64,000 nucleotides of DNA, taken from NCBI RefSeq assembly GCF_009914755.1, contig NC_060946.1; one strand, 5' to 3'. Under the pieces are notes generated by a model. The model was not told where the DNA came from and did not search any database. It saw only the letters and a list, made by a program, of their open reading frames with translations. Positions 4,370 to 34,386 of this stretch are shown one piece after another; the stretch's first letter is position 1; each line of letters opens with the position of its first letter. Made by a program: the position numbers and the translations under genes. Origin of the DNA: the human T2T-CHM13v2.0 reference genome, Homo sapiens.

Positions 4370-4550
4370 GGCATGAGGTAGGGTAAGCCCAGGAAGGCTT
4401 CCTGGAGGAGGTGGCACTTTGACCTGAGTGGAGACCAGAGTGAGATTCTGAGAGTTTATCAGGTGGACCCAGGGAGGGGGAGGGAGTGGAAGAGCATCCC
4501 TGATGGGGACTGGCACATACCAAGACTTGGGGCGAGAGCTGCAGGCTAGA
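4370..4550 (-). mobile_element. L2 fragment
   Basis: aggaaggcttcctggaggaggtggcactttgacctgag is a typical antisense L2 segment. Confidence 0.55.
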
Positions 4551-4599
4551 ATCTGGGGGCATCATCTTAGACAGAGTCTTTATACGTCCACACAGAGTT

Positions 4600-4867
4600 C
4601 AAGAAAACTGAGAATAGACTCACATAATCCTGAACATAGGTCAATTTTGAATTCCAGATGGCAAGAATAAAGAGAATGAGGCAGACAGTAATGGCTAAGT
4701 GATTTCCAGAATTGAAGAAAGGCCCAAGTTCTCCAGCTGAAGATGTTCACTGAGTCCTAAATAGGATCATTAAATAGAAATGCACACCTGGGCCCAATGT
4801 TGGACAACAAAAAGGCAAACAAAGCATTTTTAAAGCAAACACAGAGGAAATACAAATTACTACAATA
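4600..4867 (+). mobile_element. Ancient L1 (L1M-type) ORF1 fragment, left of the trinucleotide array
   Basis: aatggctaagtgatttccagaattgaagaaag...gcacacctg...tttaaagcaaacacagaggaaatacaaattac follows L1 ORF1 in order; similar to the L1 ORF1 segments at ~39.7 kb and ~55.0 kb. Confidence 0.6.
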
Positions 4868-5350
4868 AAGAGAGAGGGGAGGAAGGAAGAATAGGAAGAG
4901 AAAGAAGAAGAAATTTAAGAGGAGGAGGAAGAAGAGAAGAAGGAAGAGGAGGAGGAGGAAGAAAAGGAAGAGGAGGAGGAAAAAGAGGAGGAGGCAGAGG
5001 AGGAGAAGGCGGAGGAGGAAGAGGAGGAGGAAGAGGGAGCAGAGGAAGAGGCAGAGGAAGAGGAGGAGGACCCGGCGGAGGAGGCGGAGACGGAGGCGGC
5101 AGAGGAGGAAAAGGAAGCAGAAGAGGAAGAGGAGGAGGACGCGGCGGAGGAGGCAGAGGAGGCGGAGGCGGAGGAGGCGGCGGCGGAGGAGGCGGCGGAG
5201 GAGGAGGCGGAGGAGGCGGAGGCGGAGGAGGCGGAGGCGGAGGCGGCGGCGGAGGAGGCGGCGGCGGAGGAGGCGGCGGCGGAGGAGGCGGCGGCGGCGG
5301 AGGCGGCGGCGGCGGAGGCGGCGGCGGCGGAGGCGGCGGCGGCGGAGGCG

Positions 5351-5383
<33 letters not shown>

Positions 5384-5388
5384 GCGGA

Positions 5389-5420
<32 letters not shown>

Positions 5421-5535
5421 AGGCGGCGGCGGCGGCGGCGGCGGCGGAGGCGGCGGCGGCGGAGGCGGCGGCGGCGGAGGAGGCGGCGGCGGAGGAGGCG
5501 GCGGCGGCGGAGGAGGCGGCGGCGGAGGCGGCGGA

Positions 5536-5576
<41 letters not shown>

Positions 5577-6816
5577 AGGAGGAGGAGGAGGAGGAGGCGG
5601 AGGAGGAGGAGGAGGCGGAGGAGGAGGAGGAGGCGGAGGAGGAGGAGGAGGCGGAGGAGGAGGAGGAGGCGGAGGAGGAGGAGGAGGCGGAGGAGGAGGA
5701 GGCAGAGGAGGCGGAGGAGGAGGAGGAGGCGGCAGAGGAGGAGGCGGAGGAGGCGGAGATGGAGGAGGCAGAGGAGGAAGAGGAAGCAGAAGAAGAGGAA
5801 GAGGAGGAGGACGTGGCGGAGGAGGCGGAGGAGGAGGCGGCGGAGGAGGAGGAGGCGGAGGAGGAGGAGGCGGAGGAGGAGGAGGCGGCGGAGGAGGCGG
5901 CGGAGGAGGCGGCGGAGGAGGCGGCGGAGGAGGCGGCGGAGGAGGAGGAGGCGGCGGAGGAGGAGGAGGCGGCGGAGGAGGCGGAGGAGGCGGCGGAGGA
6001 GGCGGCGGAGGAGGTGGAGGAGGAGGAGGAGGCGGCGGAGGAGGAGGAGGCGGCGGAGGAGGCGGCGGAGGAGGCGGTGGCAGAGGAGGCGGCGGAGGAG
6101 GAGGCGGAGGAGGCAGAGGAGGAAGAGGAAGCAGAATAAGAGGAAGAGGAGGAGGACGAGGCAGAGGAGGCGGAGGCGAAGGAGGCGGCGGCGGAGGAGG
6201 CGGAGGCGGCGGAGGAGGAGGAGGCGGCGGAGGAGGAGGCGGCGGAGGAGGAGGCGGCGGAGGAGGAGGCGGCGGAGGAGGCGGCGGAGGAGGCGGCGGC
6301 GGCGGAGGAGGCGGCGGCGGCGGAGGAGGCGGCGGCGGAGGCGGCGGAGGAGGCGGCGGCGGCGGAGGAGGCGGCGGAGGAGGAGGAGGCGGCGGAGGAG
6401 GAGGAGGCGGCGGAGGAGGAGGAGTCGGCGGAGGAGGAGTCGGCGGAGGAGGAGGAGGCGGAGGAGGAGGAGGCGGAGGAGGAGGAGGCGGAGGAGGAGG
6501 AGGCGGAGGAGGAGGCGGCGGAGGAGGCGGCGGCGGAGGCGGAGGCGGCGGAGGCGGAGGAGGCGGAGGCGGAGGCGGAGGAGGAGGAGGCGGAGGAGGA
6601 GGAGGCGGAGGAGGCGGAGGCGGAGGCGGCGGAGGCGGAGGCGGAGGCGGCGGAGGCGGAGGAGGAGGCGGAGGCGGAGGAGGAGGCGGAGGCGGCAGAG
6701 GAGGAGGAGGAGGAGGCGGCGGCGGAGGCGGCGGCGGAGGAGGCGGAGGAGGAGGAGGAGGCGGAGGAGGAGGCGGAGGAGGAGGAGGCGGCGGCGGCGG
6801 AGGAGGCGGAGGAGGA
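4868..6816 (+). repeat. ~1.95 kb mixed (GGA/GGC)n trinucleotide array with a degenerate GAA/GGA 5' end
   Basis: Read directly; register GG[A/C] kept from 4921 to 6816; longest pure GGC run is 13 units (5536-5574); almost no T on the + strand. Confidence 0.99.
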
Positions 6817-6930
6817 CTGACAATAGCAACAATAACTGGCTGAAAGCCAGCTTTGTAATATCCTCAAACTTCTGAAGGAAAATAATGAAGGCTAGAATCC
6901 TCTACCAAACTAAAACCAATGAACACCCTT
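6817..6930 (+). mobile_element. Continuation of the same L1 ORF1 fragment, right of the array
   Basis: ctgacaatagcaacaata...aagccag...aatatcctcaaacttctgaaggaaaataat...ctagaatcctctaccaaactaaaac matches the L1 ORF1 segment that normally follows the left piece. Confidence 0.6.
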
Positions 6931-6938
6931 TAAGTCTA

Positions 6939-7326
<388 letters not shown>

Positions 7327-8578: not shown

Positions 8579-8772
8579 GGGAGTCAGGGAGACAGGGCGA
8601 GCCAGGGAGAGGGGGGGAGCCGGGGAGAGGTGGGGAGCCAGGGAGAGGTGGGGAGCCGGGGAGAGGTGGGGAGCCGGGGAGAGGTGGGGAGCCGGGGAGA
8701 GGTGGGGAGCCGGGGAGAGAGGGGGAGCCGGGGAGAGGTGGGGAGCCGGGGAGAGGTGGGGAGCCAGGGAGA
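8579..8772 (+). repeat. G-rich 18-bp VNTR, ~10.5 copies
   Basis: Unit gagccggggagaggtggg with ccag and agaggg variants. Confidence 0.95.
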
Positions 8773-9269
8773 GAGAAGCCCCATCCGCCATGCACATGAG
8801 GAGTGCGTGCCACAGAACATGGCACAGGCAAGCCTGAGATGGCCGAGGCCACCAGCAAGACCCCTGGGCTCTCCAGTGTCCCCTGACCAGTGACCCAGCA
8901 GGGGGACAAATGCCTTCGTGGAGGAGGCACGCCGTAGCTTCCTCAACATCCACAAGGAGACAGAAAAATATTCTAGGGTCTTAGCAAACAACTCACCAAC
9001 CCAGGTCAGAGCGACTGTTGAACCGTCCACAGAGTTATTGACATAAAGCCTCATGTACCGCTCTTTATGGGGAATTTAAGGGAATTTCAGGGGTAATTTT
9101 GATTGCTAGCAATTTTCACCTCCTAGATGACTTTAGAACCAGACTCTATACAAGATACAACTCCACTGTAAACAAGTAATTACTGACCAGGATGACACAT
9201 TGGTGACAACAGGATGTTGGAGGCAGAGAAGAAATATAAAGAGGGGTGATTATCTCTGTTTGGGGCTTT

Positions 9270-19639: not shown

Positions 19640-20115
19640 CACACATATGCACTCCACACCATGCACACACGCCACACCACGCACGCACGCGCTCCACACC
19701 ACGCATGCACGCACTCCACACCACACATGCACACACACAAACACATCATCTTCTACATACCACACAACACACACTGCACACACATGAATGGGGGCTTTGA
19801 CACACACCCACTGCACACAGCACAGACCACACATGCACAAACAGGCACTGCACACATATGCACACACACGTGTACACACTATTCACATACACAATCACAC
19901 ACATCATACACCACACACAGGATACACAGGTACCCCACACACGTGTACACACCACTCATACACAATCACACACAAACACATCATATACCACACAGGATAC
20001 ACAGGTACCCCACACACGTGTGTATACACCACTCATACACAATCACACACAAACACATCATACACCCACACACACACACACACGCGATACACAGGTATCA
20101 CACACACCACACACT
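19640..20115. repeat. Degenerate CA-rich low-complexity tract with an internal ~77-bp repeat
   Basis: cacacaggatacacaggtaccccacacacgtg...catacacaatcacacacaaacacatcata repeated at ~19914 and ~19991, partial third copy. Confidence 0.9.
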
Positions 20116-27095: not shown

Positions 27096-27802
27096 TGTGT
27101 GGGTCCGTTCTCACACTGCTATGAAAAAAATACCCGAGACTGGGTAATTTATAAAGGAACAGGCTTTGACTCACAGTTCTGCATGGCTGGAGAGACCTTA
27201 GGAAACTAACAGTCATGGCGGAAGGCGAAGGAGAAGCAGGCATCTTCTTCACAGGGTGGCAGGACGGAGTGAGTGCCAGCAGGGGAAATGCCAGATGCTT
27301 ATAAAACCATCGGACAGTGAGACTCACTCACTATCATGAGCACAGCATGGGGGAAACCGCCCCCATGACCCAACCACCTCCACCTGGTCCCACGGAAAAT
27401 GCCCCCGTGATCCAACCACCTCCACCTGGTCCCACAGAAAATGCCCCCGTGATCCAACCACCTCCACCTGGTCCCACGGAAACCACCCCCGTGATCCAAC
27501 CACCTCCACCTGGTCCCACGGAAAATGCCCCCGTGATCCAACCACCTCCACCTGGTCCCACAGAAACCACCCCCGTGATCCAACCACCTCCACCTGGTCC
27601 CACGGAAAATGCCCCCGTGATCCAACCACCTCCACCTGGTCCCACAGAAACCACCCCCGTGATCCAACCACCTCCACCTGGTCCCACGGAAAATGCCCCC
27701 GTGATCCAACCACCTCCACCTGGTCCCACCCTTGACATGTGGGGATTATGGGGATTACAGTTCGAGGTGGGATTTCGATGGGGACACCTAGAAACCATAT
27801 CA
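27096..27802 (-). mobile_element. THE1 (D-like) MaLR solo LTR containing a VNTR
   Basis: gtccgttctcacactgctatgaa...actgggtaatttataaagga...aaaccatatca; near-TSD agccc/agtcc. Confidence 0.9.
27352..27729. repeat. 42-bp VNTR, 9 copies, derived from THE1 sequence
   Basis: Unit ggaaaatgcccccgtgatccaaccacctccacctggtcccac; variant gaaaccacccccg. Confidence 0.97.
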
Positions 27803-32295: not shown

Positions 32296-33165
<870 letters not shown>

Positions 33166-34218: not shown

Positions 34219-34386
34219 CAACCCTCACACCCTGGCCACCATCACACCCTGGCCACTGTCACACCCTGGCCACCGTCACACTCTGGCCACCGCCACGCCC
34301 TGGCCACTGTTATACCCTGGCCACCGTCACACCCTGGCCACCGTCACACCCTGGCCACTGTTATACCCTGGCCACCCTCGTGCCCT
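34219..34386 (-). repeat. Inverted copy of the 17-bp minisatellite, ~10 units
   Basis: Ygtcacaccctggccac units are the reverse complement of the units at 32640-33165. Confidence 0.95.

What the first reader, a model, noticed from the sequence alone, without database searches (positions are those of the whole stretch)
4868..6816. Very long in-register (GGA/GGC)n array far from any visible gene
Seen: about 630 consecutive triplets of the form GG[A/C] with no net frameshift, a very high CpG count, and pure GGC runs of up to 13. Established: long CGG/GGC tracts underlie folate-sensitive fragile sites and expansion diseases (FMR1, NOTCH2NLC), usually in 5' UTR CpG islands; GGA repeats form G-quadruplexes; strong G skew favours R-loops. 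Inference: this is an orphan, repeat-built CpG island that is probably very length-polymorphic. Its intact CpGs suggest recent expansion or germline hypomethylation, and it could be an unrecognised unstable or epigenetically switchable locus.
Basis: partly seen in the sequence, partly recalled or inferred. Interest (0 to 1): 0.8.

Follow-up and report, generated by a model that had tools for sequence, protein, structure and literature searches.

The report
Giant interrupted GGC/GGA triplet repeat
A 1.9-kb stretch of non-coding human chromosome 22 consists almost entirely of the triplets GGA and GGC; it is a real and unusually large simple repeat that looks like a CpG island on paper, but nothing here shows that it has a function or is unstable.

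Summary
In 4868-6816, 577 of 649 in-frame triplets are GGA (329) or GGC (248). There are no indels over 4919-6816, 245 CpGs (o/e 1.49), and the longest pure GGC run is 13. "630 consecutive" is overstated: the longest uninterrupted GGA/GGC stretch is 182 triplets.

The array is hierarchical. A roughly 60-70-bp AG-rich landmark recurs four times. Behind three copies, GGC/GGA cores grew to 672, 345 and 659 bp through perfect 12-, 15- and 18-bp sub-arrays. I read it as a compound triplet minisatellite that grew in situ in single-copy DNA.

It is the only CpG-island-like block in the 64-kb window. It is also by far the largest GGC-bearing array among the 47 loci of this genome that I compared: 241 in-frame GGC against 29 at most elsewhere.

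It uses the same GGC/GGA pattern as the FMR1 and NOTCH2NLC repeats, but frequent GGA interruptions argue against fragile-site-type instability. Few CpGs have decayed (6 against 226 intact), so the array either expanded recently or is protected from germline methylation.

Polymorphism, methylation, transcription and read support for the assembly could not be tested here.

The parts
4868..5040 (+). Degenerate AG-rich 5' zone (GAA/AGA/GGA with the first scattered GGC). I infer it is the purine-rich seed from which the array grew.
   Evidence: Triplet map; TRF 27-bp row at 4889-5061 with 75% matches and 10% indels.
5041..5140 (+). Landmark copies 0 and 1, whose anchors end at 5071 and 5140, 69 bp apart. 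This is the unexpanded form of the macro-unit.
   Evidence: Four-way alignment with mean column identity 82%; exact 12-nt anchor found 4 times in the window.
5141..5812 (+). Macro-unit 1, 672 bp, the GGC-richest (98 GGA, 114 GGC, 111 CpG). It contains a (GGA GGC4) 15-mer x5.8 at 5284-5370, pure (GGC)10, (GGC)8 and (GGC)13 runs, and a (GGA5 GGC) 18-mer x6.7 at 5581-5700. It ends with landmark copy 2.
5813..6157 (+). Macro-unit 2, 345 bp (67 GGA, 37 GGC, 35 CpG). Its sub-arrays are a 15-mer (GGC GGA4) x3.2, a 12-mer (GGA2 GGC2) x5.5 and an 18-mer x3.0. It ends with landmark copy 3.
6158..6816 (+). Macro-unit 3, 659 bp (124 GGA, 90 GGC, 90 CpG). It uses the same motif set as unit 2 in a different order, carries a duplicated GTC variant at 6425 and 6440, and ends abruptly against unique DNA.
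4560..4867 (+). 5' flank. It is single-copy in this genome at BLAST sensitivity and could serve as an anchor for genotyping.
   Evidence: The own-genome DNA search matched only itself. The protein read-through also matched only itself.
6817..7013 (+). 3' flank, single-copy in this genome. An Alu-like element follows at about 7014 (recognised by eye; the name is recalled).
   Evidence: The own-genome DNA search at E <= 10 matched only itself.

Best explanation
This is a compound, hierarchically built trinucleotide minisatellite that grew in situ in single-copy intergenic DNA. First, a purine-rich stretch gave rise to an AG-rich unit of about 60-70 bp that became four tandem copies. Then, in three of those copies, a short GGC/GGA core directly behind the landmark expanded on its own. 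The expansion happened by replication slippage or unequal sister-chromatid exchange in steps of 12, 15 and 18 bp, reaching 672, 345 and 659 bp. Every step is a multiple of 3 and there are no long homopolymer runs, so the register is kept without any selection. The open reading frames and the CpG-island statistics follow from composition: each GGC followed by G makes a CpG. The most likely biological status is a neutral, probably length-variable repeat. Its CpGs have survived either because the GGC-rich blocks are young or because very CpG- and GC-dense DNA escapes germline methylation. Shown: the anatomy, the register, the nested sub-arrays, the uniqueness of the flanks, and the rarity in this genome. 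Inferred: the order of events, the slippage mechanism, neutrality, and the reason the CpGs are retained.
For: TRF finds one array with 0% indels. 577 of 649 in-frame triplets are GGA or GGC. The landmark occurs four times, with anchors ending at 5071, 5140, 5812 and 6157, and a mean column identity of 82%. Sixteen perfect sub-arrays have periods of 2, 4, 5 or 6 triplets, and units 2 and 3 share motif sets while unit 1 differs. A GTC variant was copied along with its unit at 6425 and 6440, which shows local unit duplication. Both flanks are single-copy. Five of the six stop-to-stop frames are open across the array and the sixth is broken once, as expected with only 11 T. Other kb-scale purine arrays exist in the same genome, 7 of 36 being 1.7 kb or longer, so the general kind is common. 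The window holds at least 10 other minisatellites, so the region is prone to repeats. In the unit bodies 226 CpGs are intact against 6 candidate decay products.
Against: Neutrality is assumed, not tested. None of the 46 comparison loci accumulated GGC in this way (at most 29 in-frame GGC against 241 here), so something particular to this locus may favour or protect GGC. In the core, G-to-A changes are no more frequent after C (9 of 243) than after A (10 of 305). That fits protection from methylation better than plain neutral decay, though the numbers are small and include landmark positions. The order of events (macro-duplication before core expansion) is not proven. My attempt to tie the seed to an old LINE-1 ORF1 failed.
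Confidence: 0.7

Rival explanations
1. It is a functional orphan CpG island. The very CpG- and GC-dense array would stay unmethylated in germline or pluripotent cells, attract CpG-island chromatin (H3K4me3 with Polycomb), and act as an unannotated promoter, a boundary or an R-loop-forming element near the RefSeq enhancer at 1652-2148.
For: It meets the sequence criteria for a CpG island and is the only such block in 64 kb. [quoted passage not shown] CpG decay is low. GC skew is 0.54-0.70.
Against: No gene or start site is annotated in the window (hub table). The CpG statistics follow directly from the repeat unit. No transcription, chromatin or methylation data were available to me. The flanks are CpG-depleted (o/e 0.15 and 0.30), so the island has no shores.
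Confidence: 0.15
2. It is an unstable, expansion-prone or epigenetically switchable locus of the FMR1/NOTCH2NLC type. Long alleles would become hypermethylated, or would give a rare folate-sensitive fragile site or repeat-derived peptides.
For: It uses the same GGC/GGA pattern as the FMR1 repeat in this genome, (GGC)9 GGA (GGC)9 GGA (GGC)10 in L052. NOTCH2NLC alleles are described as (GGC)n followed by [(GGA)n(GGC)n]n (PMC8590777, passages). The G-rich strand of the GGC-rich part folds into a strong hairpin. It is one of only 27 loci in this genome with a pure (GGC) run of 13 or more. One frame would read as almost pure polyglycine.
Against: The longest pure run is 13. From memory, this is well below the pure-run lengths linked to instability at FMR1. 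GGA units were stable across generations and were suggested to lessen instability at NOTCH2NLC. There is no 5'UTR or gene here (hub table). FRA22A is already explained by CSNK1E. There is almost no ATG in the array, which has only 7 T in 4919-6816.
Confidence: 0.1
3. It is an assembly artefact, in whole or in part. The length or internal order would be wrong because the region fell into a HiFi coverage dropout and was filled from a noisier nanopore assembly.
For: The T2T paper states that HiFi coverage was lacking across GA-rich sequences and that those gaps were filled with an earlier ONT-based assembly (PMC9186530, passages). This array is 86% purine on the + strand.
Against: There is no indel in 1.9 kb, the sub-arrays are perfect and the landmarks are ordered. 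Those features are not what an indel-prone consensus would give. I could not see reads or the assembly's issue list for this place.
Confidence: 0.05

Closest known systems
FMR1 5'UTR CGG repeat with AGG interruptions (seen here as locus L052, chrX of the same genome)
   Same: Read in the same phase, the FMR1 allele in this genome is (GGC)9 GGA (GGC)9 GGA (GGC)10. It therefore uses the same two triplets, in register and CpG-dense, and its G-rich strand is prone to hairpins.
   Different: FMR1 has 28 GGC and 2 GGA in a gene's 5'UTR. This array has 248 GGC and 329 GGA, is intergenic, has pure runs of 13 at most, and has a higher-order landmark structure. Calling L052 FMR1 rests on my recognising the downstream translation printed and on its position; no annotation tool confirmed it.
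NOTCH2NLC GGC repeat with GGA interruptions (NIID/OPDM)
   Same: It is a compound (GGC)n[(GGA)n(GGC)n]n structure. Its GGA units are stable and may dampen instability, and very long alleles become hypermethylated (PMC8590777, passages).
   Different: NOTCH2NLC alleles have long pure GGC stretches inside a transcribed 5'UTR or uORF. Here GGA outnumbers GGC, pure runs are short and no transcript is known.
Kb-scale purine-rich (GGA-type) arrays elsewhere in T2T-CHM13, such as L015 on chr9, a 1.9-kb in-register GGA/GAA array
   Same: They are similar in size, in purine strand bias and in intergenic simple-repeat nature. L015 also keeps triplet register, with 427 GGA in its best in-frame segment.
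   Different: None carries GGC. The 36 GGA-type loci have 0-15 GGC and at most 19 CpG, and only 5 of the 36 are mainly triplet-phased.
Synthetic or promoter-less CpG-island-like DNA (Wachter et al. 2014)
   Same: CpG-rich and G+C-rich DNA with no promoter function, reported to adopt CpG-island chromatin by default (abstract).
   Different: Those were non-repetitive inserts in mouse ES cells. Behaviour of a pure triplet array at its native human locus is unknown.

Membership tests
CpG island (sequence definition) | Length at least 500 bp, G+C at least 55%, CpG observed/expected at least 0.65 | tested here: met
   The block at 4801-7100 has GC 0.71, o/e 1.31 and 250 CpG. The array alone has GC 0.76 and o/e 1.48-1.49.
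CpG island (biological definition) | Unmethylated in germline or soma, with CpG-island chromatin, often a transcription start | not testable with these tools
   No methylation, chromatin or CAGE data were available. The hub table lists no gene in the window.
Expansion-prone CGG/GGC repeat (FMR1, NOTCH2NLC, folate-sensitive fragile sites) | CGG/GGC motif tract | tested here: met
   248 in-frame GGC triplets.
Expansion-prone CGG/GGC repeat (FMR1, NOTCH2NLC, folate-sensitive fragile sites) | Long uninterrupted pure run (tens of units in unstable alleles; this threshold is recalled) | tested here: not met
   The longest pure runs are 13, 10 and 8. In the own-genome scan the (GGC)13 pattern matches this place once, so the run is exactly 13.
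Expansion-prone CGG/GGC repeat (FMR1, NOTCH2NLC, folate-sensitive fragile sites) | Lies in a 5'UTR or promoter of a gene | not tested
   The hub's RefSeq table shows no gene in the window, and the nearest lncRNA ends 5.4 kb upstream. I ran no transcript search.
Expansion-prone CGG/GGC repeat (FMR1, NOTCH2NLC, folate-sensitive fragile sites) | Length instability in pedigrees or populations, and methylation of long alleles | not testable with these tools
   Only one haploid genome is held.
Compound minisatellite/VNTR with higher-order structure | Head-to-tail units with nested periodicities and a recurring higher-order unit | tested here: met
   TRF; 16 perfect sub-arrays of 6-18 bp period; four landmark copies.
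Compound minisatellite/VNTR with higher-order structure | Copy number varies between individuals | not testable with these tools
   No second human assembly or ape orthologue is held.
Non-B DNA tract (G-quadruplex, H-DNA, CGG hairpin) | Sequence able to form the structure | tested here: inconclusive
   A hairpin is predicted only for the G-rich strand of the GGC-rich part (-64.4 kcal/mol, z -6.67). The C-rich strand gives -8.8 and the GGA-rich parts 0 kcal/mol. Runs of three G are almost absent (2 GGG triplets), so only two-layer quadruplexes are conceivable. Quadruplex and triplex folding are not modelled by the tool.

The most novel reading that the evidence does not exclude
This may be the largest GGC-bearing triplet array in a complete human genome, and it goes unseen by motif-pure repeat catalogues. 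It could be a length-variable, lineage-specific repeat CpG island that is kept unmethylated in the germline and switches to a methylated state above some length. That would make it a natural methylation-switching VNTR in 22q13.3 that could influence the neighbouring enhancer or lncRNAs, or appear as a rare fragile site.
Probability: 0.1. Interest if true: 0.7.

Novelty: new member of a known kind. Interest (0 to 1): 0.38.

Why it matters
If the assembly is right, this locus is a natural extreme of the FMR1/NOTCH2NLC pattern: about 250 GGC units diluted by about 330 GGA units, with no gene attached. It could show how interruptions, total CpG load and pure-run length each affect stability and methylation, free of selection on a host gene. 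It also exposes a blind spot. Catalogues built by majority motif and purity filters file such arrays under GGA or drop them. In the CGG/CAG/GAA catalogue I could search, the interval between the two flanking lncRNAs holds only one CAG and one GAA entry. The single-copy flanks make it easy to genotype in existing long-read assemblies.

Tried and rejected
(1) Flanks as a decayed LINE-1 ORF1. By eye and from memory the flanks resembled L1 ORF1, which would have placed the seed inside an old retrotransposon. No test supported this.
- Pfam on 6 stop-free pieces gave 0 families.
- Pfam on 3 read-throughs with X at stops gave only DMAP1_like at E 0.11.
- tblastn of a young L1 ORF1p taken from locus L002 had its best hit at E 0.033, on the wrong strand.
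- Nucleotide Smith-Waterman scores were no better than shuffles, z -0.2 upstream and 1.2 downstream.
- One search used the wrong ORF (ORF2) by mistake and is void.
An older L1 family was not available for comparison, so the idea is unproven rather than excluded.

(2) Translating whole flanks for Pfam failed because of stop codons.

The census therefore rests on two BLAST-type searches in which only 40 of 592 and 40 of 393 candidates were scored. "Largest in the genome" is thus a statement about the 47 loci examined, not about all loci.

(5) Literature on this locus.
- Searches for LOC339685 (4 papers) and LINC01644 (21 papers) listed nothing about a repeat, judging from titles and abstract starts only.
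- Supplements of PMC7844047 gave no hit for the gene names or for my estimated coordinate prefixes; I did not inspect their table format.
- PMC11760257 does not mention chr22 in its main text; bioRxiv supplements are closed.
- I found no description of this array in these searches, which is not proof that none exists.

(6) GRCh38 position. Two catalogue entries (a CAG at 47,410,007 and a GAA at 47,427,692) matched short repeats at about window 37,204 and 54,928. That places the array's 3' end near chr22:47.3796 Mb. This is an inference, and it says nothing about the array's length in GRCh38.

(7) A coding reading was rejected. The long open frames follow from the near absence of T.

Full report
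**What is there**

Reading 4500-7300 shows unique, moderately AT-rich DNA running into an AG-rich stretch at about 4868. That stretch turns into an almost pure alternation of GGA and GGC and stops abruptly at 6816.
- TRF calls one array at 4919-6816 with 0% indels.
- In 4868-6816 one frame gives 329 GGA and 248 GGC, which is 577 of 649 triplets. The remainder is mainly AGA (41).
- The base counts are G 1226, A 450, C 262 and T 11. There are 245 CpGs at o/e 1.49.
- GC content reaches 0.85 and GC skew is 0.54-0.70.
- From the background frequency of the two triplets in the rest of the window (2432 of 62047), 25.4 of 649 would be expected by chance.
- Pure GGC runs reach 13 (5536-5574), 10 and 8. 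The longest stretch of nothing but GGA/GGC is 182 triplets.

**Anatomy**

The array is not a homogeneous microsatellite.
- An AG-rich landmark, marked by a GAC triplet found nowhere else in the array, occurs four times. Its 12-nt anchor ends at 5071, 5140, 5812 and 6157. The four copies align with 82% mean column identity.
- The first two anchors are 69 bp apart. The following units are 672, 345 and 659 bp long and hold 98/114, 67/37 and 124/90 GGA/GGC triplets.
- Inside the units there are 16 perfectly periodic sub-arrays. Examples are (GGA GGC4) x5.8 at 5284-5370, (GGA5 GGC) x6.7 at 5581-5700 and (GGA2 GGC2) x5.5 at 5878-5943.
- Units 2 and 3 use the same motif set in a different order. Unit 1 is the GGC-rich one.
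- A rare GTC variant appears twice, 15 bp apart (6425 and 6440). It was therefore copied together with its unit.

I infer this order of events: first a landmark unit of about 60-70 bp in four copies, then independent growth of the GGC/GGA core behind three of them in steps that are multiples of 3.

That explains the register without invoking selection. The stop-to-stop frames (five open across the array, the sixth broken once at 6137-6139) follow from the near absence of T.

**Surroundings**

Both flanks match only themselves in the whole assembly. The array therefore sits in single-copy DNA, or in a repeat too old to detect.

My impression that the flanks are a decayed LINE-1 ORF1 was not borne out by Pfam, tblastn or shuffled-control alignment.

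The flanks are CpG-poor (o/e 0.15 and 0.30). The array is the only block in 64 kb that passes CpG-island thresholds, and it holds 245 of the window's 1271 CpGs. The window contains at least ten other minisatellites, so the region is rich in tandem repeats.

**How unusual it is in this genome**

The window's own assembly could be searched.
- A pure (GGC)13 occurs at 27 distinct places (87 overlapping matches). This locus is one of them and matches exactly once.
- A GGA-rich piece of the array (5740-6130) found many other long purine arrays: 100 matches, with 40 of 592 candidates scored.
- A GGC-rich piece (5200-5580) found mostly short GGC tracts, with 40 of 393 candidates scored.

I fetched three sets of comparison loci:
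- all 36 distinct non-self places, leaving out two Y-chromosome PAR copies of X places;
- 9 places with the longest alignments;
- the longest pure GGC tract.

The results were as follows:
- Seven of the 36 purine arrays are 1.7 kb or longer, so kb-scale purine arrays are common. They hold only 0-15 GGC and at most 19 CpG, and only 5 of the 36 are mainly triplet-phased.
- With a +1/-2 score for in-frame GGA/GGC, this locus scores 475 (292 GGA, 241 GGC).
- The next best scores are 116 for a chr9 GGA/GAA array with 1 GGC, and 58.
- The most GGC in any comparator is 29, in a pure tract on chr17.

Among the 47 loci examined it is therefore by far the largest GGC-bearing array.

**Relation to disease repeats**

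Locus L052 on the X chromosome reads (GGC)9 GGA (GGC)9 GGA (GGC)10 and is followed by a short open frame. I recognise that frame from memory as the start of FMRP, so the classical AGG-interrupted CGG repeat uses the same two triplets in phase.

NOTCH2NLC alleles are described as (GGC)n followed by [(GGA)n(GGC)n]n. Their GGA units were stable across generations and possibly stabilising, and very long alleles were hypermethylated (PMC8590777, passages).

The present array is that pattern taken to an extreme, with more interruptions than repeats. With pure runs of 13 at most, no gene, and FRA22A already assigned to CSNK1E at 22q13.1 (bioRxiv 10.1101/2020.03.25.007864, passages), the fragile-site analogy is weak.

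Predicted single-strand folding gives a strong hairpin only for the G-rich strand of the GGC-rich part: -64.4 kcal/mol, z -6.67. The C-rich strand gives -8.8 and the GGA-rich parts 0 kcal/mol. Quadruplex and triplex formation could not be modelled.

**Why the CpGs are intact**

In 5041-6816 there are 244 CpG, 13 CpA and 4 TpG. Nine of the 13 CpA and two of the 4 TpG lie in the landmark stretches I aligned. At least the CpA recur across the copies, so they are probably ancestral. That leaves 6 candidate decay products against 226 intact CpGs in the unit bodies.

Using a germline transition rate of roughly 1e-7 per methylated CpG site per generation, 2.6% decay corresponds to about 1e5 generations, or a few million years. 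That rate is recalled and comes from no call.

So either the GGC blocks are young or they are not methylated in the germline. Two points bear on the second option:
- In the core, G-to-A changes are as frequent after A (10 of 305) as after C (9 of 243). The numbers are small.

I cannot decide between the two options with the data held here.

**Assembly**

The T2T paper reports missing HiFi coverage across GA-rich sequence, filled from an earlier nanopore assembly (PMC9186530, passages). This array is of that composition, so read-level confirmation is needed. The strict register and the perfect sub-arrays argue against a noisy consensus.

**In print**

I found no description of this array. The searches were, the supplement look-ups were made, and I read main-text passages of PMC11760257.

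In the catalogue of PMC13020279 the interval between LOC339685 and LINC01644 holds one CAG and one GAA entry and no CGG entry. Its method (TRF with period up to 3, sorting by motif, then a purity filter) would file or drop such a compound array. Its absence therefore says nothing about GRCh38.

**Verdict**

This is a real, extreme but ordinary-in-kind compound triplet minisatellite, a CpG island by composition only. Function, instability and epigenetic switching remain untested.

Noticed in passing
window 8579-8773: A GC-rich minisatellite lies 1.8 kb downstream of the array. Its 18-bp unit is present in 9.7 copies at 94% matches, with a 54-bp higher-order period.
   Followed up: no
window 32642-33161 and 34221-34376: A 17-bp minisatellite is present in 30 copies with a 241-bp higher-order period. 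A second array about 1 kb away has a 17-bp unit that looks like the reverse complement of the first, so the two form an inverted pair of the same VNTR (the orientation was judged by eye).
   Followed up: no
window 27352-27729: A 42-bp minisatellite is present in 9 copies at 91% matches. Together with arrays at 2209, 19650-20072, 26336 and others, it makes the window unusually rich in tandem repeats.
   Followed up: no
L015 (G000:C9:15136500-15139300): A 1.9-kb array of GGA and GAA triplets keeps triplet register and is almost free of GGC (446 GGA, 155 GAA, 1 GGC). It is the closest structural analogue found.
   Followed up: partly
L054 (G000:C17:7790642-7790728): This is the longest pure GGC tract met in this genome, 29 units (17 overlapping matches; 29 GGC). 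I did not identify the gene.
   Followed up: no
L052 (G000:C23:146175600-146177800), locus positions 1081-1170: The repeat reads (GGC)9 GGA (GGC)9 GGA (GGC)10 and is followed by a short open frame that I recognise from memory as the start of FMRP. It is apparently the FMR1 allele of this genome.
   Followed up: partly
window 7014-7324: An Alu-like element lies directly after the 197-bp unique 3' flank. I recognised it by eye, and the hub lists the stretch as masked. The family name is recalled, not tested.
   Followed up: no
window 5759-6139: The only ATG inside the array (at 5759-5761) opens the Glu/Ala-type frame, which runs to the only in-array stop (TAA at 6137-6139). This is a mechanical ORF with no evidence of use.
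   Followed up: no
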